A stretch of DNA of 64,000 nucleotides, taken from contig CAYXRK010000002.1 of NCBI GenBank assembly GCA_964467615.1, forward strand, positions 4,576 to 68,575, written 5' to 3'. The position numbers and the translations under genes were made by a program. Within the stretch, counting starts at the first letter, position 1, and every line of letters begins with the position of its first letter. Under the pieces are notes generated by a model. It did no database searches and was not told the DNA's origin. It saw only the letters and a list, made by a program, of their open reading frames with translations. This document shows, in pieces, positions 23,539-62,900 of the stretch. This stretch comes from an uncultured Nitrospirales bacterium. Lineage in GTDB: Bacteria; Hydrogenedentota; Hydrogenedentia; Hydrogenedentales; GCA-2746185.

Positions 23539-23925
23539 CTATCGCCGAGGAAGCACGGCCACGCATTCGACTTCGACTTGGAAGTCGAACGGCAAGCGGC
23601 CCGCTTGAATGCAACTTCGCGCGGGACGCTCTTCCATGAAGTACTCCTTGTATATCTCGTTAAACGCGCCGAACTTGTCCATGTCTGACAGGAACACCAA
23701 CACCTTTACGACATGCGGCAACCCGGATCCCGCGGCCTCGAGTACCGCCTTAACGTTGTCCAAGGCCTGACGCGCCTCGGCTTCGAAGTCCCCCTTCACC
23801 GCGGTACCATCGGGCTTCATCGGTACCTGTCCCGAGATAAACAACAAGTCCCCAGCGGCGACCGCCAACGAATAAGGCGACTTCGGTCCGCCAATTCCGG
23901 GCGTCGGCACAACTCTTTTTTCCAT
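23539..23925 (-). CDS. ridA: RidA family enamine/imine deaminase
   Basis: PYSLAV, LFISGQVP, conserved RPARS arginine, VEVE; start reassigned to ATG 23925 (GGGGAG RBS). Confidence 0.9.
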   Translation of the reverse strand: MEKRVVPTPGIGGPKSPYSLAVAAGDLLFISGQVPMKPDGTAVKGDFEAEARQALDNVKAVLEAAGSGLPHVVKVLVFLSDMDKFGAFNEIYKEYFMEERPARSCIQAGRLPFDFQVEVECVAVLPRR

Positions 23926-23999
23926 GAATGCTCCCCTTGGCGCGGCCGTGCGCGTGTCGACGAATTCTACCATATCGACGGCGCGCCCGGGCCAATGCA

Positions 24000-24031
24000 T
24001 TGTCATATATATAACATATATTATATGACAA
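24000..24031. promoter_or_regulatory. AT-rich inverted repeat, operator-like
   Basis: TTGTCATATA (24000-24009) / TATATGACAA (24022-24031), perfect 10-bp arms with a 12-bp AT-rich spacer, ~75 bp upstream of ridA. Confidence 0.55.
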
Positions 24032-24167
24032 GAGTTATTGCGTAAGCCATACGGATTGCATACCCTGGATTACAGCCCATGAACGGCCTCGCCCTCGGTT
24101 CACGACGTCGCTGTGCCCTCGCAACAACGCCAGCATATTCAGTCAGCCACCACAATATACTGTATAG

Positions 24168-24197
24168 TTGACAACCATATACACCGTATGTTCTAAT
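24168..24197 (+). promoter_or_regulatory. Sigma70-type promoter
   Basis: TTGACA (24168-24173), 18-bp spacer containing TG, TCTAAT (24192-24197). Confidence 0.6.
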
Positions 24198-24203
24198 TCG
24201 TAC

Positions 24204-24365
24204 CAGGAAGATTCGCCGGTGGTGGCCGGGTGGCGTTGCTGGGGGGACGTGAAGCTCAACGCCGCCTGGAAGCGTCTCGCGGGGATAACGAGACGGCCCG
24301 TTTTGGTCTTCCATGGGGGTTTCCATAGAGTTCTGAGCGGCCCTAGCGGCCGCTCATCGCTTTTT
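24204..24365 (+). ncRNA. Candidate structured non-coding RNA or leader (family unknown)
   Basis: Closing helix 24206-24213/24305-24312, 13-bp helix 24226-24238/24257-24269, 7-bp hairpin 24273-24279/24289-24295; bounded by a promoter and a terminator; no credible ORF. Confidence 0.5.
24334..24365 (+). terminator. Rho-independent terminator
   Basis: TGAGCGGCC / GGCCGCTCA 9-bp stem, 5-nt loop, then TCGCTTTTT. Confidence 0.7.
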
Positions 24366-24407
24366 GGGCCTGTGCGTTTCGAGCAGGTCGTCCGATAGAC
24401 TGCCAAC

Positions 24408-26153
24408 ATGCGTCACGCCGCCGCTTGCGTCCTGCTCCTGGCCCTCGTCATCTATGTATTCGTCGACGTGTTCGCGTTCAATTTTGTCGATTTCGATGAC
24501 AATGTTTACCTGACCGAGAACGCGCGGATTGCGGACGGCCTGACCTGGTCCAACATTCGCTGGGCGTTCGAGACGAACTACCATTCCAACTGGCACCCGC
24601 TCACCTGGCTCTCGTACCTCGCCGAGATTCAGCTGTTCGGCCTTGACCCCGGCGTCATGCACGTTACCAATGTGCTCATTCACGGGATGAACGCGGTACT
24701 CGCGTACGCGTTGCTCTATTGGCTCACGAGACACTTCGGCCCTAGTCTGCTCGTCGCCGCTCTTTTCGCGGTCCACCCGCTCCACGTGGAATCCGTCGCG
24801 TGGATTTCCGAGCGCAAGGATGTACTTTCCACTGGCTTCGGCTTGCTCTCAATACTGGCTTACACAGTATCCCGGGCAGAGGGTACGCGCCGCAGAACGG
24901 CGATTTACTGCGCGAGCGTCCTCCTGTACGCATGCAGCCTCGCGTCGAAACCGATGCTCGTTACCATGCCCGTACTCTTGCTCCTTCTCGATTACTGGCC
25001 GCTCGGCAGACTGCGGCGAACGGTGTTGGTCGAGAAAGTTCCGTACGCCGCGCTTGCGTTGGTGGCGGCATGGATAACACTGGCAGTGCAAGGTGCCGGC
25101 AGCAGCGTACAGAGTTTTGAAATCATTCCAATGCCGCAACGACTCACGAACGCCGTGCATGCATGCGGGATGTACCTTGGTCACACCGTCTGGCCCGCGG
25201 AGTTGGCGGTGTTCTACCCCCATCCCCGCGGCTCGCTCAACACCGGAACCGTCGTGGCGTGTGCCACCCTTCTCTTTGCGTTGACCGTTTTCGCATGGCG
25301 CATGCGTCGACGCGCGCCGTGGCTTTGGTCCGGCTGGCTTTGGTTCGCCGTGTCGCTGGCGCCGGTTATCGGCATCGTCCAAGTCGGCGGCCAGGCCTAC
25401 GCCGACCGCTACACCTATGTGCCGCTCATCGGCGTGTTCGCGGGCATCGCCTGGACTGTGCTCGGTGCCCGCCCGCTCATGCGCCAACTCGACCTCGCCG
25501 CGCTCGGTGCCGCGGCCGTCGTCGCGCTTGCCGTCACCGCGCGCGCACAAACAGCCCACTGGGAGAATACCGAAACACTGTTCGCGCATGCCGCTGCTGT
25601 CACTGAACGTAACGTTCTCGCATCGGACATCCTCGGCCGCTACTATTTTGACCACGACCGGCTCCGCGAATCCGAGGAAGCATTTCGCGCCGCTCTGGCG
25701 ATCAATACGGAGTACCCGAAAGGAAAGCGCGACCTCGGCCAGGTACTGCTTGCGCGAAACGAGACCCGCGAGGCCGTGCTCGTGTTGGAGGACGCGATCG
25801 AACTCTGGCCGGATGACGCCTCGGCGCATGCCTTACTCGCCCAAGGCTACAACCAAGCCGGTGACTCCTCAGCCGCCGCGCGCGAATACGGGCGCGCGAT
25901 AGAACTCAGCGCGGGCGGCGCTGCCCTGTTCACCGCATACGGCAACGTCCTCGCGCGCCTGGATCGTCTTGATGACGCGCTCGAACAATACGACGACGCC
26001 ATCGCGCAGGATCCCGCCTACGCCCTCGCCCACTTCAACCGTGGCAGCGCCCTGAAACTCTTGGGCCGAGATCCGGAGGCGGGCGAAGCATTTGGCCGCG
26101 CGAGCGCACTAGACCCGGAACTCGCCGACGCAGCGGATCTGCTTCGCCGTTAA
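24408..26153 (+). CDS. TMTC-like GT-C membrane glycosyltransferase with C-terminal TPRs
   Basis: FDDNVY in the first loop, WHPLTWLSY, HPLHVESVAWISERKD, ADRYTYVP; many TM helices, then TPRs. Confidence 0.85.
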   Translation: MRHAAACVLLLALVIYVFVDVFAFNFVDFDDNVYLTENARIADGLTWSNIRWAFETNYHSNWHPLTWLSYLAEIQLFGLDPGVMHVTNVLIHGMNAVLAYALLYWLTRHFGPSLLVAALFAVHPLHVESVAWISERKDVLSTGFGLLSILAYTVSRAEGTRRRTAIYCASVLLYACSLASKPMLVTMPVLLLLLDYWPLGRLRRTVLVEKVPYAALALVAAWITLAVQGAGSSVQSFEIIPMPQRLTNAVHACGMYLGHTVWPAELAVFYPHPRGSLNTGTVVACATLLFALTVFAWRMRRRAPWLWSGWLWFAVSLAPVIGIVQVGGQAYADRYTYVPLIGVFAGIAWTVLGARPLMRQLDLAALGAAAVVALAVTARAQTAHWENTETLFAHAAAVTERNVLASDILGRYYFDHDRLRESEEAFRAALAINTEYPKGKRDLGQVLLARNETREAVLVLEDAIELWPDDASAHALLAQGYNQAGDSSAAAREYGRAIELSAGGAALFTAYGNVLARLDRLDDALEQYDDAIAQDPAYALAHFNRGSALKLLGRDPEAGEAFGRASALDPELADAADLLRR

Positions 26154-28984: not shown

Positions 28985-29120
28985 TGGGCTATTTAATCAC
29001 GTCTTGTGAACGATGTGCATGTTTTGGAAGTACAAACGGAACGATGCGGTATTCGCTCGACGAACTGGAAGGAACATTTCGAGAATAAACCGACGTGACC
29101 GCACGCACAGGAAAATAACA

Positions 29121-29375
29121 ATGATCAACTGGGAAGACTACATCGAACTGAATCCTGAAGTAATGGTCGGAAAGCCCGTAGTCAAGGGTACTCGGTTGAC
29201 CGTCGAGCATGTTGTGGGGCTGCTTGCGGCCGGTTGGCCCATAGAAGACATCCTTCAGGGCTTTCCCAGCCTGACCAGGGAAAGCATTCAAGCTTGCCTG
29301 GCTTATGCACTCGACCTTCTTGAATCAGAAGTATCGCTCGCTCCCGCTCACGCTCACGCTCACGCTCTGAAGTGA
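29121..29375 (+). CDS. DUF433 family antitoxin
   Basis: NPEVMVGKPVVKGTRLTVE..LLAAG..EDILQGFPSLTRESIQACLAYA; start moved to ATG 29121. Confidence 0.9.
   Translation: MINWEDYIELNPEVMVGKPVVKGTRLTVEHVVGLLAAGWPIEDILQGFPSLTRESIQACLAYALDLLESEVSLAPAHAHAHALK
29335..29367 (+). repeat. Short hexanucleotide tandem repeat (CGCTCA)x3 plus degenerate units
   Basis: cgctcg ctcc cgctca cgctca cgctca cgctc, encoding the LAPAHAHAHAL tail of DUF433. Confidence 0.7.
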
Positions 29376-29722
29376 AGATTCTCCTGGACGAAAACGTTGT
29401 GCTGGGCGTCGCGGACCGCATGCGGCAGTTGGGCCACGACGTTAAGCACGTCCTCACCGATTGCCCCGGCTCGCTAGACAAGCAAATACTCGATATCGCG
29501 GCAAAAGAAGGCCGCTTGCTCGTCACGTTCGACAAGGGTTTCGGAAGATTGGTTTTTCTGGAAGGGATCAAGCAAGTCGAAGGAATTATTCTATTCCGCG
29601 TCCTCTCCTCCGGCCTTTCAGAATCCGCGGAATACATCGCGAATATTTTGACGTCCCGCGACGACTGGAAGGGGCATTTCAGCACGGTGCGAACGAAGGG
29701 AATCCGGCAGGTCCCGCTTTGA
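29372..29722 (+). CDS. DUF5615 PIN-like toxin
   Basis: MKILLDENV, GHDV, LDKQIL, LLVTFDKGFG; GTGA overlap with DUF433. Confidence 0.9.
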   Translation: MKILLDENVVLGVADRMRQLGHDVKHVLTDCPGSLDKQILDIAAKEGRLLVTFDKGFGRLVFLEGIKQVEGIILFRVLSSGLSESAEYIANILTSRDDWKGHFSTVRTKGIRQVPL

Positions 29723-29861
29723 ATTGCCTTGCCCATTATCATATTCTGTTCTCAAGCGGCTAGAGCGTGCCTGCTCGGCCCCGAAATTTTGTATTATTCC
29801 GGCTTCGTTTGCCCCCTTTTTGCCGATGGCGGAAAGGGACCCTTTTTTTGGTTGAGCGAAT

Positions 29862-47974: not shown

Positions 47975-50900
47975 CTAAACCCTGCGTTGCCGCCGCCGGA
48001 GCAGGCACAATGCCGCGGCCGCAGCCAACGCCAGCGCAATATCGCCGGGATGCGAAGATCCACCCGCGACGCCAGAGGCCGCACAGCCTGTTGTCGTGCT
48101 CAACGCCGTGCCTGTGACGGTGATGTTCGCGCCGCCGCCGCCGGTCAGAGTCAATACACGGTTGAAATCTCCGGCGGCACCCGGCGCGAAACGAACCACG
48201 ACTTCGTGCGCAGGACCGCCCGGAGCAATGCTATAGCTGCCGCCCGATACGATGCTGAACGGCGCCGAAACACCGGCGACGCCTTCGAGCAGCGCGTCAC
48301 CTACGTTCGACACGCTAAGGGTCAATTCGCCGTCGCTGCCCACGGGGACCTCGCCGAAGGCAAGCCCGTTCGGCGTCGCTTGCAGTACCGCCCCCAACGG
48401 ACGGTTGAACGGCGCCACTAACGACAAGGCGACCAAGTCAGCCTCCACCACACTGGCAGATACGCCCGCGTTGGCGACCTTGTCGGTGGTCCATTCCCCG
48501 GCTTCGCCGGCAATCTGCACACCGCTCGAATCGGTCGTAACATTGGACGGATGCGTAAACACTTGCTCAGTGCCGCCAGCCGACACGCCAACGCCGGAAA
48601 TCATGTAATGGACGGGGTTGGCCTCGACTCGCGCGTCGTCTACTTCCGCAAACGTCGCGCCGCCGTCATTGCTTATCAACACGGTGACCTCGGCATACTG
48701 ACCGTCGACGATCAGCCCGCTTGACGGCTGCTCGCCTAGCAGCGCAGCCTGATCGACGCCTAACAACGTATCGAGATCATCCGCCACCAACAAGATGAGG
48801 ATCGCGTCTTCGCCGTCTTCGACGAGGGCCCGCGGCGCTTCCACCGTCACGACAACTCCTTCAATCGTCGGACTTTCGACCGACATCGTGACCGATCCCT
48901 CATCCGTTTGTTTCTTATTCCTATTAAACTTGGTCGCACCCACGGCCTTGCCCTTGCCGGTGCTCGTTTCCGTGACGGTCGTGGTCCAAGTATCGCCCGT
49001 GGTCGGTAGCGCCGCAAACGGATCGTCCGGAATACCGTTCAAGTCGGTATCCGTAGTGGCGGCCGCAACGGTGACCGTGAACGCGATCTGCGCTTGGAAC
49101 GATAGCGCCGGAGCGCTCAGACTTTCCGCGGTGGCCACGACCACGTGGGTGCCTGCGCCCGCGATAGCGAGAAGATCACTAATGGTGACCGCGTAAGGAG
49201 GAGCATCGGCCATACCGACGCCTGCGCCGTCAAGCGTATACGAAACCAGAAGCGTGTCCTCCGGGCAATCGACTTCCGACAGGATGGTAAGCGTCTGCGC
49301 CGGGGCGTTCGCGTCGATGAAAATGGTCGCGCCGTCCGGCGGTCCCGTTATCGCCACAGAGCCAAGTACGCAACCGCTGGACTGCAATGTCACCGCCCCA
49401 TCGGTACTAGTCGAAACGGAATTGCGGTTACCCGCGGCGTCCTCTGCCGCGTTGGCGCGAACGGCGACGCCAATCACACCCTCGGTTTCCGCCTGGACGA
49501 CTGAGATTGTGTACGTGTCCCCGGAGCCGGAAATCGAAAGGACGACTCCTGTCACGGAGCCTCCGACGACGACGTCCGACGCGTCGAATCCTGTAACAGG
49601 TTCGCTAAACGAGACCCGGAAATTGATCGGCAGGGCGACCGCCGGATCCTGTTGGTCGGCCGCTTGATTTACTACTACGGAGGGCGCCTCGTTATCGACG
49701 ACGACAACTGCGCTCGGTGCCGACGCGGGTGCGCCATTACCGGCGGTGTCCGTCGCCGTGCCTGCCAGCACGCTCACGCCCAGCGTGCCACTTCCGCTAA
49801 TGTTCGTCAGCGTCACCGTGCGCTCGGTCAGGCCGCTGCCAGAGACAAGCACCGTAGCATCTGCAGAGCCCGTCTTGTCCACCACAACATCGCCGGTGCC
49901 TAGCGTGATCACGGTGGCGTCCGTGTATGTCACTGTGTACGTGACAGGAAGATTTGTTGTGGCTGGCAGCGACGGCCCGCTAATCGAAACCTGTGGCGCG
50001 CTGGCGTCCACGATGAACGTCGCGCTCGTGGCCCCAGGTGCTTGTTCGCCGACGAGATCGGTGGCCGTTCCCTCAGCGATCGTAATGCCCAGAGAACCTT
50101 GACCGCTAATATTGGAAACCGTCACGGTACGAGTGTTCTTGCCCGAACCACTCACCGCGATTTCGCCCGACGCCGTGCCGGTGGCGTTAAGCGTAATGTC
50201 GGCTGGCGACAGCGTAATCGTCTCCGCCCCGACGTAGCTGACGGTAAACGATACCGGCCCCGTCTGCGTGACCCCCGTCGATGGAGGAGACACCTGCATG
50301 CTCAACGGTGAGTTGTCGACGACAAAGGTCGCGCTCGCCGTCGCGGCAACCGCCGGGTTTCCAACAAGGTCGGTGGCCGTGTTCGCGGCTATCGCAACCG
50401 CAAGCGTCCCATCGCCGATAATGTTGCTAATCGTAACGATCCGCTGCATCGAGCCGGAACCGGACACGCCAATTTCGCCGAATGCGTCGCCCGTCGCTAT
50501 CAACTGTATGTCGCTTGGCGAAAGTGTGATGCTGTTCGCCTCAATGTAGGAGACAACAAACTCGACAGGGCCGTTTTCGGTCCCCGATAGACTTGGCGGA
50601 CCGATACCGAACGATGGCGGCGTGTTGTCAATCGTGTACTCGGCGCTCGACAGATTACTCACTTCCAATTGGTTTCCCACCACATCAAACACGTTGGTCC
50701 CGATCGTAATGCCCAGCGTCCCGTCGGCATCCTCGTCTAACGGCGTGATCGCTACCGTGTACGTATCGCCCGACCCGGTGAGAGAAATCGGATCAATCGC
50801 GTTGGAAAGTGTGCCTGTCACCGTAATGTCGGCCGTGGTAAACGAGTCGACTATCGCTTCGGTAAATTTCACACCGTACGAAACCGATTCCGCGTTCGTC

Positions 50901-53900
50901 CGCGCGGAATTGTTGGACGTAATACCGCTGACCAGCGGCGCCGCGTTGTCTACACGCAATATAGCCTCATGGTTCGTCGCTTCCGCCGACAGGTTCCCCA
51001 ACGCGTCCCGCGCGGTGCCCGCGGCGATGAACAACGTAATCGGCCCATTGCCAGTTAGGTTGGTCAGCACAATGGTCCGTTCCTGCGGACCGGTCTCCTC
51101 GATTCGAAAATCAGCCGTGGGAACGTCCGGATTGTTGTCGAACGGCGGAAACGCTTGAACGCCCTTCGCATCACCGGAATCGGTCGTATCCGTGGTATTC
51201 GAAACCGGATCGATCGGGCGGCCCTGGAAATCGTCGATGGACTCAGCGACGATCCGAACCTCTTCCTCGCTGAGCGTAATCTCGTCGCTCCCAGGGTACT
51301 GGATGACAAAACGTACTTCCGTATCGAATTTTGCTATCGATGGATCGGGTGACGCGATGATTACTTCCGGAGCTTCTCGGTCGATGTCAAAGTGCTCTCC
51401 CTCCGTAAAGTCGCCGTTGTTTGCGCCGGGACCGCCGAGCGGGTTCCCGACAGAGTCCACGATTGAATCGTCGTCGACCACCGTCAGGAGGAGCGTCCCG
51501 TCGCCTGCGCCTGCGTCGACCGTCACATCGTAGACCGCGCCGCTTCCGCTGACCATAGTCACTACGGAGGAAGAAACCAATTTCCCATCGTCGGACTCGA
51601 CGGCGAAGTCAGCAAAGGGCGGTCCGATATCCACGCCAGAAACCGATTCGGTGAAGGTCACGCGGAAGTGGACTTCCGTAGCGGCAGTAGGCGTCAGATC
51701 CAGAATGGCGATTGATTCCACCAACGGGTCTAGCGTGTCGACCTCGCGATCAAACACTTCAGACGCGCTGTTCTGATTTCCGGCCAAGTCGACAACCGAA
51801 TTGGCGGCGACCTGTGCGGACACCGCACCCTGCCCGGCAGGATTCAGGAAGAAGGAAAAACTAGATGGTGTGAGCGGGATCAACGAACTCGCTGTCGCGT
51901 TCGTTGTGATGATATCGGCCAGCGTGAAGTCGGCGACGGCTTCATTGAATGTCACCGCCACAGGAATGGTAGACGCGCCGGTGAGCTGAGGTTCGGTCGA
52001 CGAGAGAACCACCGTTGGACCAGTCACGTCGTAAGCACGGCTGAATTGCGGGGCCGCCAAGTTCCCGTTTCCGATCGTGTCCAAGGCCGCGTCGGCGGGA
52101 ACATCGACCGTCACGGGCCCTTCGGCGGAAGGCGCCAAATCGAAAGTGTATTCCATCGCGCTGACAGGCGTGAAATTCGATGCCGTGCCGTTCGATATGA
52201 ACATATCGGCCTGCGTAAATCCGGTAACGGCTTCGTTGAACGTGACGGTAATATCGAAAGTCGAATCGCTCGTCGGGTCAGCTACACTCGAAGAAATGAC
52301 GACTTCGGGCGAAGCGCCCACAAAGGTGCGCAGGAACTGATCCGCGGCCCCATTCGCATTGCCCGCGGTATCGTTCGCGGCACCCGCGGGCAAATCGATC
52401 GTCATAACGGTGGGCTCGCTTAGCGGAACGAGTTCCAATGTGTAGACGTCGCCTGATTGCACCGCGAAATTCGCGATCGTCGCGCCACTAATCACAAGGT
52501 CGCTCTGATCGAAGCCCGTGACGTTTTCGCTGAACGTCACGGTCACATCGGTCGTCGGATTTCCCGTCGGTTCGGGCTGTGTGCTCGATATAAGGACATC
52601 CGGCGCCACGGAGTCGTAAACGCGTGTAAATACGGCCGAATCGACATTGCCATTGTTCGCGGCATCTAACGAACGGTTCGCGGCTATGACCGCGGAGACC
52701 GTTCCTTCGCCCTGAGGAACGAGATCGAACGTGTAAACGGCGCCCGATCCCGCAAAGTTAGAAACTGTGGCGTTCGAAGACGTAATGTCGATCGCCGTAA
52801 AGCCGGTCACGGATTCAGAATAGGTCACCGTAACAGGGACGCTGGCCGCGTTCGTGGGATCGGATACGCCGGAACTCAGCGTGACGTTCGGGGCGACGCT
52901 GTCAAAGGTCCTGCTCAACGCTGCCGCCGCAGTACTCGCGTTGCCTGCGTTGTCGAGCGCGGCCCCGCCCGCTACATCCGCGGAAACCACACCTTGGCCT
53001 GAAGGCACGAGGCTGAACGTATAGACCGCGCCGGACCCCTCAAACCCGGTCACAGCCGCGTTCGTCGGCGCGACGTCAGTCGACAGGAAGTCAGTCACGG
53101 GCTCGCTAAACGTCGCCGTGACCGTGATCGGGGAAATATTCGTCGGGCTGCCCAGCGCGGATGAGAGCACGAGTGAAGGCGCCTGACTGTCGTACGTGCG
53201 GCTAAACGTCGCGGCAGCCGTATTGGCGTTCGCCGCCGCATCGATCGCCACGCCGCCCGTAATGTCCGCCGTAATGTCTCCGTCGGAGGTTGGCGTCAAA
53301 TCAAACGTGTACGTCGAACCGGCGCCCGCGAAGTTAGACACGGTCGCGTTACCTGCTGTGATCTCGCCCGCCGTGAAACCGGTCACGCTCTCGCTGAACG
53401 ACACGGCCACCTCAATCGGGGCCGTATTCGTGATGGCCGGGGCCGAACTCGTCATCGTTACTTCGGGGCCGCCGCTATCGAATGTAACTTCGATGCGATT
53501 GGACAGCGTATTACCATTGCCCGCGGAGTCCTGGGCCGATGCGGCTGAAGCCTCGACCGTTACGACACCGTCGCCCGAAGGCGTTGCGTTAAACGTGTAA
53601 ACCGTCGCGCTCTGGGGGACGAAGTTTCCGATTGCGGCATTTGTAACGGCGATTTCGCCCGCGGTCAATCCGGTGACGGCCTCGCTAAAGGTGGCGGTGA
53701 CCGCGATGGGCTGAGTATTCGTCGGATCGGAAGAGCTGGTGCTCAATACCACGGTGGGGGGTGAAAGATCCACGGTACGGATAAGCGCCGCGCCCGCCGC
53801 CGCGTTCAAGTTGCCCGCGATGTCCTGCGCTACACTGCCCGCCACGTTGACCGTTATCGCTACGTTGTTGCCGGAAGGCGTTACGCCGAAGGAAAACTCC

Positions 53901-56900
53901 GAACTACTTTCGCTCGTAAACCCAGTCAATGTTCCGTTGGTTACGGACACATCACTCGACGTGAAACCCGTCACGGGTTCCGTAAACATCACGGTTACGG
54001 GAACGGGATTCGCGCTCGTCGGGTCCCCGGCCGGGGAAGTGATCGTCACGCCCGGATTGGTGCTATCGAAAGTACGGCTCAACGTTCCCGACTCGGAGTT
54101 GCCATTGGCCGCGCTGTCCTGCGCCGCGTTTGGTCCGACCTCGGCGGTAACTGGGCCCTGTCCAACCGGCGCCAGATTGACACTGTAACTTGCGCCTGAC
54201 CCGCTGAATCCGCTCTTTGTCGCGTTCGTGACGATAATATCCCCAATTGCGAATCCGGTAACGGGTTCGCTGAACGTAATCGTCAACGGTATCGGATTCG
54301 TGTTAGCCGGCGAATTCGCCGATACCGCCGAAGTCAACGCTACTGTAGGCGCAGTGTCGTCGAACGTGCGCGAAAGCTGGGCCGCGGCCGTATTCGTGTT
54401 ACCCGCCGCGTCTACCGCTCGCCCTCCAGCCACGTTCACAGTCACCTCGCCATCGGTCGCGGGCACTACGTGGAACGAATAGTTCGCGCCGGATCCCGCG
54501 AAATTGCTCAGCGATCCATTGCCAATTACGACATCGCTCGATACGAATTCGGTGACGATTTGGCTAAACGTTACGGTCACCGGAATGGGTGAGGTCTTGG
54601 TCGGATTGCCGGCCGTGGACGCGAGCACCGTCCCTGGGCGTGTACCGTCGAATGTGTTCGCCGCGGTGTTGGACGCAGTGTTTCCGTTTCCGGCGTCATC
54701 CGTCACTACGCCGCCCGCGAGAGAGACGCTTACGACACCGTCGGCCGCGGGCGTGATTTGCATGCTCCATTTGTCCGGCGTCAACTGAGTAAACCCGAAG
54801 ACGCTTCCATTGCCGACCGTCACGTCACCTTGCGCGAACCCGCTGACGCTTTCGCTGTATTGAATATCGAACGTCAAGGGATTCTCGTTCGTTGGGTTTG
54901 AATCGATTGGGGTCACTGTGACCGACGGAGCACTTCCGTCAAAAACGCGGCTGAATTGGCTGCTCGCGGCGTTCCCGTTGGCCGCGCTGTCCGTCGCGGC
55001 GCCGGCGGAAATGACTGCCGTTGCCGCGCCGTCCGCGGTGGGCAACAAGTTATAGGAGTAGTTCGCGCCGCTGCCGCTGAATCCTCCCACGGTCGCGTTC
55101 GACGTTTGGATGTCGCCGCTCGTGAAACCCGTGACGGACTCGCTGAAGGTGACCGTCACCGCGATCGAGGTAGAGCTTGTCGGATCGCCTTCTGCTGAAG
55201 TCATCGTTACGGTCGGGGCCTGACTATCAAACGCCCGGCTCAACTGACTAGCGGCCGAATTACCGTTTGCGGCGCTGTCCAGCGCAACACCTCCCGCTAC
55301 GTTGACCGTGACCGTACCAACCGCCACGGTGGGAGTGGCGCTGAAGGTATATACGGTCGAGCTCTGCGTTTGGAAGTTCGAAAAAGTCGCGTTACCCGCC
55401 GTGATGTCGCCGATCGCGAAACCTGTCACTGCTTCGTTGAACGTCGCCGTTACCGGGATCGGAGAATTCTTGGTCGGATTAGAAGCGGTCGTCGTCAACG
55501 TAATGGTCGGCAGCGTGTTGTCGAACGTCCGGCTGAATTGCGCCGCCGCCACGTTCCCGTTCGTCGCGGTGTCCACCACAACACCCGCCGCGATATTTGC
55601 GGTGACCGCTCCCGGGGCAGTCGGCGCGATGTTGAAAGTAAAGCTGCTCCCGGTACCGCCAGCCGGAGACAGTGCCGACGCCGTCCCGTTTCCAACCACG
55701 ATATCGACCAACGCGAAGCCGGAAATGCTTTCGCTGAACGTGACCGTGACGGCGATCGGATTGCTGTTCGTCGGGTTTGCGGCCGCGGAAGACATCGAGA
55801 CCGTCGGAGCGGTGGCGTCAAATGTCCGGCTGAGCGCCGTCGCGGCGTTGTTCGTGTTGCCCGCCGAATCCTGCGCAACCCCGCCGGAAATGTTCACGGT
55901 AACTAACCCGTCGGCCGACGGAATAACGTTGAACACATACTGCGTGCCGCTGTTCGGCGTAAAATTCGTGACGTTGCCATTAGTGACGCTAATGTCCCCC
56001 GCCACAAATCCAGTCACCGACTCGGTGAAATTGGCGGTCACGGAGATTGGCGAGGTCTTTGTCGGGTTGGACGAGGCCGAGGTCATCGAAACGCTCGGCT
56101 TCGTGCCGTCGAATACGCGCGAGAATTGCGCCGCTGCAGTGTTGTTGTTTCCGGCCGCGTCTTGTGCTACGCCGCCTGCCACATCAACGGTAACTGTTCC
56201 CGCAGCCAAGTTCGTCAATTGAATTGAGTAGCTCGCGCCCGAACCGCTCAAACTGCCGACCGTCGCGCCCGACGCAACAATCTCGCCCAGTGTAAGTCCG
56301 GTCACTGCTTCGCTAAAAGTCAACAATACGGTAAGCGGACTGGAATTCGTCGGATTGGACGCGACAGACGACAGCGTCGCGGCAGGGCCCGTGCCGTCGG
56401 ATGTAATCGCGAATTGGCTGGCGGCCTGGTTTCCGTTCGCGGCCAAATCCTGCGCTACGCCGCCCGGGATGTCGACGGTCACTGTCCCGTCGACCGTAGG
56501 CGATACCGTAAACGTGTACGTCGACGCGTTGGTCACGGCGAAGGTGCCCACGGTCCCGTTCGAGGCCGTGATATCGCCTTGAGCGAATCCTGTCACCGCT
56601 TCACTGAACGTCGCCGTGAACGGTATCGGGGCCGTGCTCGTCGGGCTTGTTGCGCTCGATGTGATCGCGACCGTCGGCGCGGCGCTGTCGAACACAATGC
56701 TGAACTGTGACGCGGCGGTGTTGTTGTTCCCAGCAGTGTCCTGCGCGATGGATCCCGCGATGTTCGCCGTTACGGTCCCTTGGCCAGTCGGCGTTAAATT
56801 GAAACTGTACGATGCGCCCGATCCGCTGAATCCCCCAGCGGTGGCGTTGCCTGCCGCGATATCGCCGACGGCAAACCCTGTCACCGATTCGTTGAACGTA

Positions 56901-59900
56901 ACCGTCACCGGTATCGGGGTGGTTTTCGTCGGTCCGGGAGATGCAGTTGATGCCATAGACACTGTCGGCGCGGCCGTATCGAACGTGCGGCTGAACTGTG
57001 GAGCGGGATCGTTCGGATTCGTCCCGGCGTCCTGCGCGATGCCACCGGCGATATTCGCCGTAACGGCGCCCTGGCCCGTCGGCGTCAAATTGAAGCTGTA
57101 CGACGCGCCCGATCCGCTAAACCCGCCGACAGTCCCGTTACTCGGCGTGATGTCCCCGGACGTAAATCCTGTAACCGTCTCGCTGAACGTGACCGTGACT
57201 GGAATGGGCGTCGTATTGGTGACTACGGCCGTCGCGGACGTCATCACGACCGTCGGGTTCGTGCTATTGAAATCAATCGAGAACTGCGTCGCCGCCGTGT
57301 TGTTGTTGCCCGCGCCGTCCTGCGCCACGCTCGCCGCGATGCTCGCCGTAACGGTCCCGTTCGCGGTCGTCGGCACCAGACCAAACGAATACGAAGCGCC
57401 GGAGCCGGCGAACCCCGAAATCGTGGCGTTGGTTGCCGTCACATCAGCTTGCACGAACCCCGTAACGCTTTCTGTAAACGTGACCGTCACCGGAATCGGA
57501 GAAACGTTCGTCGGCCCCGGAGAAGCGGTCGACGCCATCGACACGCCAGGCTGCGTGGTGTCAAAGGTCCTGTTAATCACGTTGCCCGCGGTATTGTTGT
57601 TACCCGCCGAATCCTGCGCCGCGCTGCCGTTAACTGTTACCGTCACTGCGCCTTGTCCGCTCGGCACCACGTTGACGGAGTAGCTCGCTCCAGATCCCGC
57701 GAATCCGGATTTCGTAGCATTGGTTACAACAACATCTCCGATCACAAATCCCGTTACCGATTCGCTGAACGTTATCGTCAAGGGAATCGGCGATGCGTTT
57801 GTCGGGTTGGCCGCGCTCGTCGTTAGTGCGACCGTCGGTTGCGTCGAATCAAATGTCCGGCTGAATATCGTGGACGCGTTGTTCGTGTTACCGGATGCAT
57901 CCGTCGCCGATCCCGCCGGGATACTCGCCGTGACGGCCCCCTGTCCTATCGGAGTCAAATCGAAGGTATACGTAGACGCGCTCCCGGCAAAATTGCCCTT
58001 CGTCGCGTTGGTGACTTCCACGGCGCTAAGCCCAAATCCGCTAACGCTCTCGCCAAATTCCACCGTAACCGGTATCGGTGTAGTGTTCGTCACCGTCGGC
58101 GCCGCTGAACTCAATACCGGAGTCGGCGCGCTGCCGTCGAACGTGATTGAAAATTGCGTAGCCGCAGTGTTCGTGTTGAGTGCCACGTCTTGCGCCAACC
58201 CCGCACCAACGTTGACCGTCACAAGCCCCTCGGCCGTGGGCGTTACGGTGACCGAATACGATGCGCCGGATCCCGCAAATCCCGTTTTTGTACCATTTGT
58301 AACTGTCACGTCGGAATTCGCAAATCCCGAGACCGACTCACTAAACGTGAACGTAATAGGAACCGGGCTTGTGCTCGTCGGGCTGGTAAGCGAGGAAGAA
58401 ATCGCAACGCTCGGCTGCACATTGTCGAACGTTCGGCTAAATTGCACCGCCGCCGTATTCGTGTTCCCCGCGCCGTCCTGGGCGAGACCCGCCCCGATGC
58501 TCGCCGTGACCAGTCCCTGGCCCGACGGCGTCAGATTAAACGAATAGCTCGCGCCGCTTCCGGCAAACCCGCCCAACACGGCGTTCGTTACAACAACGTC
58601 GCCGCTCGTAAAACCCGTTACCGATTCGGTAAACGCCACGCTCACCGAAATCGGCGTCGCATTCGCCGGATCCGTTGCCGCAGACGACATACTGACGCCG
58701 GGTTGCACGCTATCGAACGTAACGCTGAATTGCGTCGACGCGCTGTTATTGTTGCTTGCTGTATCTAGCGCGGTCGCCCCCGCGACGTTCACCGTTACCA
58801 CACCCTGGGCCGTCGGTGTCACCGTCAGTGAATACGACGCGCCCGATCCAGTGAATCCGCTCTTCGTTCCATTTGTTACCGCTACGTCTCCCACGACAAA
58901 TTCTGTCACCGACTCGCTGAACGTCACCGATATCGGAATCGATCCGTTCATCGTCGGACTCGCTTGCGTCGACGAAATACTTGCCGTCGGCGCGACTGAA
59001 TCGAAGATCCGCGCAAAAGCGGACGACACCGTGTTCGTGTTCCCCGCGCTGTCGGCCGCGCCATTCGCCACGACGGTCGCCGAAACGCTTCCCTGTCCCG
59101 TAGGCGTAAGACTGAATGTGTAACTCGCGCCGGATCCGGTCAATGCGCCGGCAGTCCCACCCGTCGTCGAGACGTCCACCAGCGCAAACCCGGTCACCGC
59201 CTCGCTGAACGTAACCGTTACCGGAACGGGCGATGCGTTCGCGGGATTACCGGCGGCGCTACTCAGGCTGACCGTCGGTTTGACGTTGTCGAACGTGATC
59301 GAAAACAACAACGACTGCGCGCTGCTGTTGCCCGTCAGATCCGTTGCCGCCGCGGCCGCCACCTGCGCGCTCACCGCACCCTGTCCGCTTGGAATCAAGC
59401 TAAAGGTGTATACGGCGTCCCCGTCCAGACCTGTAAAATTGTTCACTGCGGCGTTTACCGGATCGATGTCCGCAGCCGTAAACCCGTTCACGGGCTCGCT
59501 CAAGGTCGCCGTCATCGGAATGGGAGAGGTGCTCGTCGGACCGGGAGAAGCGGAAGAGGTCAACGTCAGGGTGGGCGACGAGTTGTCAAAGGTCCGGGAA
59601 AACTGCGCTGCTGCCGCATTGCCGTTGTTCCCGCCGTCCAACGCGGTCGAGCCGGCAACGTCCACCGTCACTAGTCCCGGAGCGGTCGGCGTAATGTTCA
59701 CCGAATAACTCGCACCGGACCCCGCGAACCCGCTCTTCGAACCGTTGACGACCGCGATATCGGCGTTGACAAATCCGGTAACCGGCTCAGTAAAGTCGAT
59801 GCTCACTGCGAATGGCGTAGCGCTCGTCGGATTCGGTTCGGCCGAACTCGTCGTGAGCCCCGGCGCGACGCTATCGAACGTTCGGCTGAACTGCGGCGCG

Positions 59901-62900
59901 GCCAGATTGTTATTACCCGCTCCATCGGTGGCCGTGTTCGCTGCAATATCCGCCGTGACTAGACCTTGGCCGGATGGCGTCAGCGTCACAGAGTAGTTCG
60001 CGCCGGAGCCGCTGAACCCGCTCTTCGTCGCATTCGAGACGACGATGTCGCCGTTCACGAATCCGCTCACCGATTCGTTAAATGCAATCGTTACTGCAAT
60101 CGGAGAACTTGACGTAGTGCTCGCCGCCGCCGAAGACATCGTGACGGTCGGGGCCTGATCGTCGAATGTCACGTTCAGCGCGTTGGAAGCCGTATTTTGA
60201 TTGCCCGCGCCGTCTTGTGATGTCGAAGCGCCCACCGACGCAGTGACGCTGCCCTGCGCCGACGGCGTCAGATTAAACGTATAGACCTTCGCGGTGACTG
60301 CCACAAGATTGCCCTTCGTCGCGTTGGTCACCGCAACGTCCGCCAACGCGAATCCCGTGACATCCTCGTTGAATGTTGCTGTCACCGGTATCGGAGAAAT
60401 GCCCGTCGGGTTCGTCGCGGTCGTACTCAACACGACCGATGGCGCCGCGCTGTCGAACATGCGGCTGAACTGCGTGGCGGCCGTGTTTCCGTTGGACGCG
60501 CCGTCCTGTGCTACGCCGCCGGCAATGCTGGCCGTCACGGCCCCTTGGCCCGTTGGAGTCAGATTCACACTATAGTTCGCGCCCGAACCGCTGAACCCGC
60601 TCGAGGTCGCGCCGGTGACGGAAATATCTCCAACCACGAAACCGGTCACGGCTTCGGTGAACGCAATCGTCAACGCTATGGGGGACGTACTGGTCGGATC
60701 GCTCGAAACCGATGCCATCGAAACGCCCGGCTGCGTGGCGTCGTACGTCCTGTTCAGCACGTTCGACGCTTGGTTGTTGTTCGCGGATGCGTCTTGGGCC
60801 GCGCCGGCTGGCACGCTGACCGTCACGGTCCCTTCCGCTGTCGGCGTCACTTCGAACGTGTACACCAAGTCGCCGCCGGTACCGATGAAGCCTGACACCG
60901 ATGCGTTCGTGAACGTCACGTCCCCCGCCGTAAATCCGAACACCGCCTTGCTAAACGTTGCCGTAACCGGTATCGGAGAATTATTTGTGTTCGCGCCAGT
61001 ACCCGACGACAACGTCACGGTCGGTACGGCATCATCGAAATTGATAGAGAACTGCGTAGCGGCGGTGTTCTGATTTCCCGCGCCGTCCTGCGCGCCGTTC
61101 GCCGGGACGTCGACGGTGACAGCGCCAGGCGCTGTGGGTGTCACATTCATCGAATAGCTAGCGCCGCTGCCGGTCAGCGCCCCCTTCGCGCCGTTCCCAA
61201 CCGAAATGTCGGTCGCGGTGAAACCAGTCACGCTTTCACTGAACGTAAAGGAAACAGGTATCGGTGAGGTGCTGGTCGGATTGGCCGCGCTCGACGTAAT
61301 CGTGACGCCCGGCTGAGAATTGTCGAAGCTGATCGAGAACGGCGCCGCCGCCGTATTCTGATTACCCGCTGGATCCGTCAACTTGGCGGCCGCGATGTTG
61401 GCCGTCACGGTCCCTTCGCCCGTAGGAGTGAGAATGAGAGAAAACGCCGCGTCACTGCCCGAAAACGTCCCCTTCGTGGCGCCGGCGACGACGACGTCGC
61501 CCGTGGCAAACCCCGTTGCGTTCTCCGCGAAATTGATGTTGAGCGTGATGGGTGTCGTGCTTGTCGGACTAGAAGAGACGGAACTCATCACCGGTATCGG
61601 CGCGACCGTGTCGAATGTCCGTGTCAATGTGCTGGAAGCGTTGTTACCGTTCGCCGCGCTGTCCTGCGCCGAATTCGCCGTTACGCTGGCGGTCACGGGC
61701 CCCTGGCCCGACGGGGTCAAACTAACGGAATAGCTCGTACCGGAGCCCGAGAACCCGGAAGCCGTCGCGTTGCCAAGTGTAATGTCACCAACGGCGAATC
61801 CAGTCACGCTTTCGCTAAACGTAAACGTCACCGGAATGGGCGATACATTCGTGTTCGTTGGCGCGGTTGAAGCCAGCGCAGCCGTGGGTTTGACGCCGTC
61901 GAATGTCCGGCCGAATTGCGTCGCCGCGGAATTTGCGTTGCCGGCAAGGTCCGTGGCGACGCCACCCGCGATGCTCGCGGTCACTAGACCATTGACCGGG
62001 CTGCTCAGATTGAACGTATACGTGGATGCGCTGACTGTCGTGAAGTTCGCGACCGTCGCGCTGGTCGCGATAACGTCAGTAGACGTAAAGCCCGTCATGT
62101 TCTCGCTAAACGTGACCGTCACCGGAATCGGCGAACTGCCGGTAGGATCGGACGCGTTCGACCCCATCGTGGCCGTCGGGGCCGTCGAGTCGAACGTACG
62201 CGAGAAAACACTCGACGCGACGCTCTGATTGTTCCCCGCGTCCGTGGCCGCCGATGCAGCTATTTGCGCGGTAACTTGACCTTCGGACGTAGGAGTGAGG
62301 CTGAAAGTGTACGTCGCACCGTCGACACTCACGAAGTTACTCTTCGTCGCGTTAGCGCTGATACTGACGTCGGTCAGGTCGAAGCCCACGACGGGAACAC
62401 TAAAGGTCACGGTCACCGGGATAGGAGTGACGTTTGTCGGGCCGCCCGCTACACCCGCGATCGATGCGAGTGTCGGCGTCGGAAGTGCGGTGTTACCAGT
62501 GAACGGCGTTGTATTCGACGCGGGATTGACGTGGTTTCCCGCCAAATCGGTCGGCGATGCGGTCGATACGAAAGCGGAATACGTCGCGCCGGCCGTCATT
62601 ACATTCGTCGTAACGTCTACTTGCGTCGAGTTCACGCGCGCGACGCTTATCGCGTTGATCGAGACGCCGCCCCCGCTGACGCTAAATGTGTAGAACGTCG
62701 GGTTTATCAGATCTGCGTTGTCCGCCATCGGCTCGCTGAACGTGATGCGAATCGTCGTCGGATTGAGTGCCGTCGCGCTCGCGACCGTCGGCGGCGCGGT
62801 GTCCCCCGTCCCGCCGCCAATGCGGCCCCACCACGTGCCCCAGTTCCCCCCACCCGTCTTCGCGTATTCCTGGAGCGTCCACATCGTCAGACCATCCGAC

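What the first reader, a model, noticed from the sequence alone, without database searches (positions are those of the whole stretch)
24168..24365. Self-contained structured RNA candidate with promoter and terminator
Seen: TTGACA-18-TCTAAT placing +1 near 24204, where an 8-bp closing helix starts (GGAAGATT/GGTCTTCC); inside are a 13-bp helix with a G6-containing loop and a 7-bp hairpin; an alternative helix (24224-24228/24294-24298) competes with both. A 9-bp terminator with a U-tract follows 43 nt before the TMTC-like gene. It does not match riboswitch, SRP, 6S, tmRNA or RNase P consensus as I know them. Inference: a novel sRNA, or an attenuating leader for the glycosyltransferase.
Basis: partly seen in the sequence, partly recalled or inferred. 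Interest (0 to 1): 0.7.

Follow-up and report, generated by a model that had tools for sequence, protein, structure and literature searches.

The report
Conserved unclassified small RNA before glycosyltransferase-like gene
A roughly 160-base non-coding RNA, with its own promoter and terminator, lies just upstream of a membrane TPR (TMTC-like) gene in an uncultivated groundwater bacterium; it is clearly under selection and matches no known RNA family, but it is seen only in a few very close relatives and its job (free small RNA or leader of the gene) is unresolved.

Summary
All the described sequence features are at the stated coordinates. Rfam 15 has no family for it, and ARAGORN finds no tRNA.

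The strongest evidence is comparative. In the one full-length orthologous locus (L082, neighbouring proteins about 83% identical), the block 24147-24380 is far better kept than neutral sequence. The RNA is 92.6% identical, against 61% for the rest of the intergenic region and 62-72% at third codon positions. Single-base indels rule out a protein.

Partial variants from three other metagenome runs carry changes that almost all keep the predicted helices. These changes run only through G·U intermediates, so covariation is not statistically demonstrable. Thermodynamic z-scores are weak.

No homologue was found outside this narrow clade, and no RNA-seq run holds the sequence.

Most likely reading (about 0.45): a discrete terminator-ended small RNA whose three hairpins expose G-runs. 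Main rival (about 0.3): a transcription-attenuating leader of the TMTC-like gene.

Verdict: a real, new, lineage-restricted RNA of a known general kind, of moderate interest.

The parts
24147..24167 (+). Conserved block just upstream of the -35 box. It contains the 11-nt palindrome TATACTGTATA (24156-24166) and may be a regulator or UP site.
   Evidence: Similarity to L082, and to the X3 contig, begins abruptly at about 24147-24149 after about 150 nt of roughly 50-60% identity. The 18-mer with the -35 box is unique in the window. Function is inferred.
24168..24197 (+). Sigma-70-type promoter: -35 TTGACA (24168-73), 18-nt spacer, TG (24189-90), -10 TCTAAT (24192-97).
   Evidence: Read from the sequence. 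Both hexamers and the TG are identical in L082, while the spacer varies at 24177, 24178 and 24180. X3 has TTTAAT and spacer changes. The consensus scan does not call it because the -10 lacks A at position 2.
24204..24365 (+). Predicted transcript of about 160 nt, from the inferred start (7 nt after the -10) to the end of the U-tract.
   Evidence: 92.6% identical to L082, against 61% for the neighbouring intergenic DNA and 62-72% at third codon positions. Indels at 24269/70, 24312/13 and 24360/65 in relatives exclude coding. The RNA ends are inferred and not measured.
24206..24213 (+). P1, 5' strand (GGAAGAUU). It pairs with 24305-24312.
   Evidence: Ensemble probability about 0.57. Pair 24212/24306 is U·G in the window, C-G in X3 and U-A in L082. 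In L082 the helix is 9 Watson-Crick pairs, extended to 24204 by C24204U plus an inserted U. RNAalifold does not keep it.
24214..24225 (+). Junction J1/2 (CGCCGGUGGUGG), identical in all five variants that cover it.
   Evidence: Alignment A2.
24226..24269 (+). P2 long hairpin (12-13 pairs plus 3 inner pairs). Its apical loop carries G6 (24241-46) followed by A.
   Evidence: Ensemble probability 0.87. RNAalifold keeps it. The one-sided changes U·G to C-G (24231), C-G to U·G (24234), G·U to G-C (24267) and G-C to G·U (24255) keep pairing. One variant has G·G at 24228/24267.
24274..24294 (+). P3 hairpin (6 pairs in the window, 7 in the relatives) with loop GGGGAUA.
   Evidence: The changes C24278U and C24289U give G·U pairs. 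A24288G creates the seventh pair in all five relatives.
24305..24312 (+). P1, 3' strand (GGUCUUCC).
   Evidence: See the P1 5' strand. CUUCC can alternatively pair with a second GGAAG at 24268-72. That alternative is weakened by an A insertion in X4.
24313..24326 (+). P4 small hairpin (AUGGG/UCCAU) carrying a G5 run (24315-19).
   Evidence: Ensemble probability about 0.5. A24313G in X4 and X5 gives a G·U pair.
24334..24365 (+). Intrinsic terminator: 9-pair stem (7 G-C), loop CUAGC, then UCGCUUUUU.
   Evidence: Called by the scan and top-ranked in 20 kb. Ensemble probability 0.97-1.0. The stem is invariant. The only changes are one loop base and a lengthened U-run in L082 and X5.
24366..24407 (+). 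Post-terminator spacer: conserved 24366-78, variable 24379-90, conserved 24391-24407. The last block includes TAGACT (TACACT in L082) ending 7 nt before the ATG.
   Evidence: Reading it as a separate promoter for a leaderless mRNA is my inference. No consensus promoter is found there.
24408..26153 (+). Downstream gene: a 581-aa membrane protein with C-terminal TPR repeats (TMTC / protein O-mannosyltransferase-like by its homologues).
   Evidence: Pfam finds only TPR at residues 408-575. Homologues are named protein O-mannosyl-transferase or TPR protein, and some hit PF13231. The gene is linked to the RNA in every variant seen.
23539..23925 (-). Divergent upstream gene, a RidA-family protein. 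It bounds the 482-nt intergenic region.
   Evidence: Pfam PF01042 and TIGR00004.

Best explanation
**What it is.** A real non-coding RNA gene on the plus strand. A strong sigma-70-type promoter is preceded by a conserved 20-nt block that may bind a regulator. The promoter has a perfect -35 and an extended -10, and starts transcription near 24204. A stable intrinsic terminator ends most transcripts near 24365, which releases an RNA of about 160 nt.

**Predicted fold.** The RNA folds into a P1-closed three-way junction (P1, a long P2 and P3), followed by a small hairpin (P4) and the terminator hairpin. Each of the three hairpins carries a run of 4-6 G at or in its apical loop. P2 and P3 show GGGGA, which is GGA-containing and Shine-Dalgarno-like.

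**Proposed mechanism.**
- The G-run loops are the working surface. They would pair with C/U-rich stretches of target mRNAs, or titrate a GGA-binding protein of the CsrA type.
- Some read-through into the TMTC-like gene is possible, so the RNA could also act as a leader.

**Shown versus inferred.**
- Shown: the sequence features, purifying selection on the promoter, RNA and terminator, the absence of coding potential, and the absence from Rfam.
- Inferred: transcription itself, the RNA ends, the fold, and action in trans.
For: **Promoter, RNA and terminator conserved as a unit**
- Identity to L082 jumps from about 0.5-0.6 to 0.92 at 24150 and stays at 0.84-0.94 up to the gene start at 24408.
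- The RNA has 12 differences in 162 nt, against a neutral rate of 28-39% (p below 1e-10).
- The promoter hexamers and the TG are kept while the spacer varies.
- The terminator stem is invariant and the U-run is only ever lengthened.

**Non-coding, plus strand**
- Indels exclude a protein.
- 98.4% of pair cells are standard pairs. 39 of 254 cells are G·U, which would be mismatches on the minus strand.

**Terminator behaviour**
- The terminator has ensemble probability about 1.0 and contributes about -15 kcal/mol. No stable antiterminator is predicted.
- The region after the terminator shows a conserved, variable, conserved footprint. TAnAnT ends 7 nt before the ATG, which is compatible with the gene having its own promoter.

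**G-runs**
- G4-6 runs fall in all three hairpin tops. Only 183 of 200,000 composition-matched shuffles do this (post hoc).
- The runs are kept in all variants.

**Single copy, not a repeat**
- It occurs once in the window.
Against: - No RNA-seq run holds the sequence, so no discrete transcript has been shown.
- Covariation is not significant.
- The thermodynamic z-score is weak on the plus strand (-0.94 for the core). It is actually better on the minus strand (-3.39).
- RNAalifold does not recover P1.
- The -10 lacks the canonical A at position 2, so the consensus scan does not call the promoter.
- No consensus promoter for the downstream gene lies between the terminator and the ATG.
- The RNA is linked to that gene in every variant. 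This fits a leader equally well.
- GGA motifs are not enriched: 4 observed, shuffle p = 0.38.
- No CsrA gene lies in the window.
Confidence: 0.45

Rival explanations
1. Cis-acting leader (riboswitch-like or protein-dependent attenuator). The promoter at 24168 is the promoter of the TMTC-like gene. The P1-closed three-way junction senses a ligand or protein, and this decides whether the terminator at 24334-24356 forms. The gene is expressed only by read-through.
For: - The element lies on the same strand, with only 42 nt between the U-tract and the ATG.
- No consensus promoter lies in between.
- The RNA and the gene are linked in all variants seen: window, L082, X3, X4 and X5.
- In L110, one of the two next-closest RidA loci (L109, L110), the RNA and the TMTC-like gene are both missing upstream of RidA. 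L109 shows no RNA homologue, but it ends 319 nt upstream of RidA, so the gene cannot be judged there.
- The architecture is a three-way junction closed by P1, followed by a terminator. Junction J1/2 is invariant.
- A weak alternative pairing exists between the G-run at 24316-21 and 24339-44 in the 5' half of the terminator.
Against: - No stable antiterminator is predicted. Without its 3' arm the RNA loses about 15 kcal/mol, and the alternative is six weak pairs.
- More distant homologues of the gene (30-47% identical, 83 loci) carry no such element, by nhmmer and by a covariance model.
- The apical loops are conserved rather than free to vary.
- The footprint after the terminator is compatible with a separate promoter.
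Confidence: 0.3
2. CsrA/Rsm-type protein sponge, a special case of the free sRNA reading. The GGA motifs in the P2 and P3 loops and in two further places (24206, 24268) would bind and titrate a CsrA-family translational repressor, as RsmY and RsmZ do.
For: - There are four GGA motifs, at 24206, 24245, 24268 and 24283. Two sit in hairpin loops.
- Every variant that covers a given GGA site keeps it.
- The size, the RNA's own promoter with a conserved upstream palindrome, and the strong terminator all resemble Rsm RNAs. That resemblance is from my own knowledge of the family.
Against: - The GGA count is at chance level (p = 0.38).
- No Rfam CsrB, RsmY or RsmZ model matches, even at E up to 10.
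- No CsrA-like ORF lies in the 64 kb.
- No paper in the held library mentions both Hydrogenedentes and CsrA.
- The upstream palindrome TATACTGTATA is not the GacA box.
Confidence: 0.08
3. DNA-level regulatory region only. The conserved block would be promoter and operator DNA for the TMTC-like gene, and the hairpins would be incidental.
For: - The conserved block reaches the ATG with only a 12-nt variable gap.
- The folding z-score of the core is not significant.
Against: - About 220 nt at 93% identity is far more than operators need.
- Substitutions in stems preserve pairing in 98.4% of cells through G·U intermediates on the plus strand.
- A textbook terminator with an invariant stem sits inside the block.
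Confidence: 0.1
4. Leader-peptide attenuation. The 7-codon ORF AUG GGG GUU UCC AUA GAG UUC UGA (24313-24336) would be translated, and a ribosome reaching its stop codon would melt the 5' arm of the terminator.
For: - The stop codon UGA (24334-36) forms the first three bases of the terminator stem.
- The ORF is intact in all variants. Its start codon is AUG or GUG.
Against: - No Shine-Dalgarno sequence precedes it, and the start codon lies inside the P4 stem.
- The ORF is 'conserved' only because the whole RNA is conserved. There are no diagnostic repeated codons.
Confidence: 0.04

Closest known systems
Terminator-ended bacterial small RNAs that expose short motifs in hairpin loops, in particular the CsrA-titrating RsmY/RsmZ/CsrB RNAs (Rfam RF00018, RF00166, RF00195; family features from my own knowledge)
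   Same: - Length of 110-160 nt.
- Its own sigma-70 promoter, preceded by a conserved palindromic block.
- Several hairpins with G-rich, GGA-containing loops.
- A strong intrinsic terminator as the 3' end.
   Different: - Only four GGA motifs, which is chance level.
- No covariance-model match.
- Whether the genome has CsrA is unknown.
- The upstream palindrome is not a GacA box.
- The loops carry G4-6 runs rather than the ANGGA consensus.
Transcription-terminating riboswitches and leaders with a P1-closed three-way junction (for example the purine or TPP architecture; general knowledge)
   Same: - Same strand, immediately upstream of a gene.
- A multi-stem junction closed by P1, followed by an intrinsic terminator.
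- Conserved junction nucleotides.
   Different: - No mutually exclusive antiterminator.
- No match to any Rfam riboswitch.
- No spread across lineages or across homologues of the gene.
- No covariation.
Riboswitch-derived dual-function RNAs, where the terminated leader acts in trans (for example SreA/SreB of Listeria; from my own knowledge)
   Same: A short terminated transcript and a read-through mRNA could both arise from one promoter. This would reconcile the two main readings.
   Different: Nothing here shows either activity, and there is no sequence relationship.
mmgR/suhB sRNA (RF00519), the best Rfam near-miss
   Same: Weak alignment of 24301-24371 (12.9 bits, E = 7.2).
   Different: The score is far below the gathering score of 41. 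The alignment covers essentially only the generic terminator hairpin.
Bacterial tRNA-Sec (an 8-9 bp GGAAGAU... acceptor stem; a resemblance I recalled from memory)
   Same: P1 begins GGAAGAU and ends AUCUUCC-like, with 8-9 pairs.
   Different: - ARAGORN finds no tRNA in the window.
- There is no Rfam tRNA or tRNA-Sec hit at E up to 10.
- It has no anticodon loop, no T-loop and no CCA-type 3' end.

Membership tests
Any Rfam 15 family (4227 models) | Covariance-model score at or above the family's gathering score | tested here: not met
   There are 0 matches in the whole window. A permissive scan of 23900-24500 gives only mir-44 (14.7 bits) and suhB (12.9 bits), both at E above 2. L082 also has none.
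Independent terminator-ended sRNA gene (generic kind) | Own promoter directly upstream of the RNA | tested here: met
   TTGACA, 18-nt spacer, TGtTCTAAT. The hexamers are conserved while the spacer varies. Activity was not measured, and the consensus scan does not call it.
Independent terminator-ended sRNA gene (generic kind) | Intrinsic terminator forming the 3' end | tested here: met
   Nine-pair G+C-rich stem plus a U-run. Ensemble probability about 1.0. The stem is invariant in relatives.
Independent terminator-ended sRNA gene (generic kind) | A discrete transcript of the predicted size | not testable with these tools
   No RNA run holds the sequence.
Independent terminator-ended sRNA gene (generic kind) | Non-coding | tested here: met
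   Single-base indels between relatives at 24269/70, 24312/13 and the U-run break every ORF across the block.
Terminator/antiterminator riboswitch or attenuator | Mutually exclusive antiterminator involving the 5' arm of the terminator | tested here: not met
The best alternative is six weak pairs (24316-21 with 24339-44).
Terminator/antiterminator riboswitch or attenuator | Aptamer helices supported by covariation | tested here: inconclusive
   Six shallow sequences give 10 extra pair types and 0 double-sided changes. 378 of 500 shuffles do as well.
Terminator/antiterminator riboswitch or attenuator | Recurrent association with the same gene class in different lineages | tested here: not met
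   The element is absent upstream of 83 more distant homologues of the gene. It is present only with orthologues at 83% identity or more.
Terminator/antiterminator riboswitch or attenuator | Co-transcription with the downstream gene | not testable with these tools
   No transcript data are available.
CsrA-sponge RNAs (CsrB/RsmY/RsmZ) | Many GGA motifs, enriched and mostly in loops or single-stranded regions | tested here: not met
   Four GGA motifs, two of them in loops. The count is reached by 38% of shuffles.
CsrA-sponge RNAs (CsrB/RsmY/RsmZ) | A CsrA-family protein in the same genome | not testable with these tools
   There is none in the 64-kb window by motif scan. The rest of the genome is not available.
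tRNA / tRNA-Sec | Cloverleaf with anticodon and T arms | tested here: not met
   ARAGORN finds 0 genes, and there is no Rfam tRNA hit.
6S RNA | Long rod with a central bubble, 5' and 3' ends paired, and a match to the 6S models | tested here: not met
   The predicted fold is a three-way junction plus two 3' hairpins. There is no Rfam 6S hit.

The most novel reading that the evidence does not exclude
The element is the founding member of a new cis-regulatory RNA class: a ligand- or protein-sensing three-way junction with G-run loops. It would control a GT-C/TMTC-like protein O-glycosyltransferase in a candidate phylum (Hydrogenedentota-like). That would be the first RNA switch tied to bacterial protein O-mannosylation.
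Probability: 0.12. Interest if true: 0.65.

Novelty: new member of a known kind. Interest (0 to 1): 0.35.

Why it matters
**If it is transcribed as predicted**
- It would be one of the first regulatory RNAs described for this uncultivated groundwater lineage. The best named relatives of its neighbouring genes are Candidatus Hydrogenedentes.
- It sits next to a TMTC/PMT-like membrane protein, and nothing is known about how bacteria regulate such proteins.

**Why it is easy to test**
- The element is compact, with a clear promoter and terminator.
- In vitro termination, reporter fusions and in-line probing would all be straightforward.

**What limits its wider value**
- It is seen only in a handful of near-identical genomes.
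- There are no functional clues beyond its anatomy.

Tried and rejected
1. **Known families.** Rfam at gathering score and at permissive thresholds, and ARAGORN. Nothing was found.
2. **Repeat or mobile element.** blastn of the intergenic region against the window, and distant blastn against the plasmid and phage collections. No copies or matches.
3. **Homologues through the downstream protein.** The genome-contig scan returned 80 loci, all paralogues at 43% identity or less, and none carries the RNA. The full-length protein search gave only two orthologues, at 99% and 83%. An N-terminal fragment search gave nothing closer than 52%.
4. **Homologues through the upstream RidA gene.** The next relatives are 65-68% identical. 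They keep the RidA plus TPR-peptidase pair but have no RNA beside it. One further cluster member has no DNA available.
5. **Metagenome pattern scan.** The invariant 22-mer gave 25 hits, all chance or coding matches. L094 shares 25 nt in a non-coding context, but the covariance model does not recognise it.
6. **Covariance model R1.** It was searched over 88 sources (626 kb). Only the window and L082 scored.
7. **'Different upstream context' in run X3.** I first read this as an independent genomic location. I rejected that reading, because L082 loses similarity at the same point. It is simply diverged intergenic DNA.
8. **Hairpin around the start codon** (24381-90 with 24428-37). One compensatory flip is seen in L082, but the helix is broken in X3 and X4, so I dropped it.
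9. **tRNA-Sec-like acceptor stem.** Rejected.
10. **Missing Shine-Dalgarno sequence before the gene.** This is not informative, because many genes in the window lack one.

Full report
**Setting**

The finding lies in a 482-nt intergenic region between two divergent genes. On the minus strand is a RidA-family gene (23539-23925; PF01042, TIGR00004). On the plus strand is a 581-aa gene (24408-26153), whose product has an N-terminal membrane part and C-terminal TPR repeats.

Pfam finds only the TPR part in this protein. The 'TMTC / O-mannosyltransferase-like' label comes from the names and PF13231 hits of its homologues.

The sequence comes from a groundwater metagenome. The best named relatives of the RidA protein, at 59-66% identity, are labelled Candidatus Hydrogenedentes. 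The organism is therefore probably from that phylum or near it. This is an inference.

**Check of the observation**

- **Promoter.** TTGACA lies at 24168-73, followed by an 18-nt spacer and TCTAAT at 24192-97. I add that a TG at 24189-90 makes it an extended -10. The consensus scanner does not report this promoter, because the -10 lacks A at position 2.
- **Helices.**
  - P1 is 24206-13 with 24305-12.
  - P2 is 24226-38 with 24257-69. The minimum-free-energy fold draws 12 plus 3 pairs, with G6 in the loop.
  - P3 is 24274-79 with 24289-94. Its seventh pair is a C·A mismatch here.
  - P4 is 24313-26.
- **Terminator.** The stem is 24334-56 and the U-run ends at 24365. It is the best terminator-like site in the surrounding 20 kb, although the overall number of weak sites there is at chance level.
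The 24224-28/24294-98 pairing is complementary but has a predicted occupancy of 0.00.
- **Folding energy.**
  - The z-score is -1.88 for the whole RNA and -0.94 for the core.
  - It is -2.62 for the L082 copy.
  - The minus strand scores better (-3.39), because shuffles of the C-rich strand fold poorly.
  - Thermodynamics alone therefore does not prove anything.

**Known families**

- Rfam 15 gives no match at gathering score anywhere in the window. A permissive scan gives only two noise hits.
- ARAGORN finds no tRNA or tmRNA.
- There is no second copy in the window, and no similarity to plasmid or phage records.

**Comparative evidence**

Only one full-length orthologous locus could be fetched: L082, from a Logan assembly. 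Its downstream protein is 83% identical.

Aligned to the window, the 5' part of the intergenic region is about 50-60% identical. At 24147-24149 the identity jumps, and it stays high through the promoter, the RNA and the terminator.

| Region | Identity to L082 |
|---|---|
| RNA, 24204-24365 | 0.926 |
| Promoter block, 24147-24203 | 0.84 |
| Rest of the intergenic region | 0.61 |
| Third codon positions of the four flanking genes | 0.62-0.72 |

- Twelve differences in 162 nt, against a neutral rate of 28-39%, gives p between 5e-11 and 4e-20.
- Within the promoter, the two hexamers and the TG are unchanged, while three spacer positions differ.
- One-base indels at 24312/13 and in the U-run, plus an A insertion after 24269 in another variant, rule out any protein-coding reading of the block.

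**Further variants**

Laying Logan contigs of four other metagenome runs on the region gave partial variants.

- I rebuilt these variants from the listed differences. Differences near the ends of contig pieces are hidden, so the sequences are approximate. In particular, I cannot say whether the -35 box is unchanged in X3.
- All variants that extend 3' of the RNA run into the start of the same downstream gene.
- The X3 contig appears to have a different upstream context. This is just the same loss of similarity at 24147 that is seen in L082.

**Structure test**

On the six-sequence alignment, 98.4% of pair cells are standard pairs, against 37-45% when the partners are slid by one to three columns. 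There are ten additional pair types.

- **P1.**
  - Pair 24212/24306 is U·G in the window, C-G in X3 and U-A in L082.
  - In L082, P1 becomes nine Watson-Crick pairs through C24204U plus an inserted U. It loses one pair at the top.
- **P3.** A24288G creates the seventh pair in all five relatives.
- **Limits.**
  - No pair shows a change on both sides, and 378 of 500 shuffles do as well. Covariation is therefore not demonstrable at this depth.
  - One variant has a G·G mismatch in P2.
  - RNAalifold keeps P2, P3 and the terminator, but not P1.
- **Strand.** The G·U pairs (39 of 254 cells), together with the orientation of the promoter and terminator, point to the plus strand.

**How far it reaches**

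I found no homologue outside this tight group. The following searches all failed:

- 80 loci around more distant homologues of the gene;
- three loci of the next-closest homologues, at 46-47% identity;
- two loci of the next-closest RidA orthologues, which keep the RidA plus TPR-peptidase pair but lack the RNA;
- a metagenome-wide exact-pattern scan, which returned 25 chance hits;
- a covariance model searched over 626 kb, which scored only the window at 155 bits and L082 at 150 bits.

Only a few groundwater or sediment runs contain the sequence, and no RNA run does.

**Mechanism**

*Points for a free small RNA:*
- The terminator is strong, with an invariant stem. It has no credible antiterminator. 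The only alternative is six weak pairs between the P4 G-run and 24339-44.
- The 42 nt after the U-run show a conserved (24366-78), variable (24379-90), conserved (24391-24407) pattern. TAGACT (TACACT in L082) ends 7 nt before the ATG. This would suit a separate promoter for a leaderless mRNA. That reading is my inference.
- Many genes in this window lack a Shine-Dalgarno sequence, so its absence here says little.

*Points for a leader:*
- The position and strand fit.
- No consensus promoter lies between the terminator and the ATG.
- The RNA is linked to the gene in every variant.
- The architecture is a junction followed by a terminator.

*The G-runs:*
- The three hairpins each carry a G4-6 run at their tip. 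This is seen in 183 of 200,000 composition-matched shuffles, though the test is post hoc.
- Two of the runs read GGGGA.
- The motif recalls CsrA-binding RNAs, but the four GGA motifs are at chance level and no CsrA gene is in the window.

*My estimates:*

| Reading | Probability |
|---|---|
| Free terminated small RNA (the CsrA-sponge reading, listed separately below, is a special case of this) | about 0.45 |
| Attenuating leader | about 0.30 |
| DNA-level control region only | about 0.10 |
| CsrA sponge | about 0.08 |
| Leader-peptide attenuation through the 7-codon ORF at 24313 | about 0.04 |

The free-RNA and leader readings are not exclusive.

**Verdict**

This is a real, selected, non-coding element that no curated family covers. 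It is best filed as a new, lineage-restricted member of the general kind 'terminator-ended bacterial regulatory RNA'. Its interest is moderate, because the anatomy is clean and easy to test. However, there is no expression evidence, no covariation, no breadth and no functional handle.

Noticed in passing
window 24000-24031: A perfect AT-rich inverted repeat, TTGTCATATA-N12-TATATGACAA, lies about 75 nt upstream of the RidA start codon at 23925 on the minus strand. It looks like an operator or promoter element and is only partly kept in L082.
   Followed up: partly
window 29814-29848: An 11-pair hairpin followed by a T6 run lies 14 nt before the glycyl-tRNA synthetase start at 29862. It ends a gene-poor stretch of about 880 nt (28985-29861). 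It may be a leader or attenuator, or the terminator of an unannotated RNA. Rfam has no hit.
   Followed up: no
window 47975-64000 (minus strand): One open reading frame of more than 16 kb (over 5,300 codons) runs off the end of the window. This would be a giant protein gene.
   Followed up: no
L094 373-500: An unrelated metagenome contig carries a small structured non-coding element plus a terminator, in an AT-rich spacer. It shares 25 identical bases (ATTCGCCGGTGGTGGCCGGGCGGCG) with the J1/2-P2 part of the RNA. It has no Rfam hit and the covariance model does not recognise it, so the match is probably chance.
   Followed up: partly
window 24313-24336: A 7-codon ORF (MGVSIEF) lies inside the RNA, and its UGA stop forms the first bases of the terminator stem. 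Its start codon is AUG or GUG in the variants, and it has no Shine-Dalgarno sequence.
   Followed up: partly
window 24381-24390 with 24428-24437: A 10-nt inverted repeat brackets the start codon of the downstream gene. L082 shows one C-G to G-C flip, but X3 and X4 have mismatches, so it is probably not a conserved structure.
   Followed up: yes
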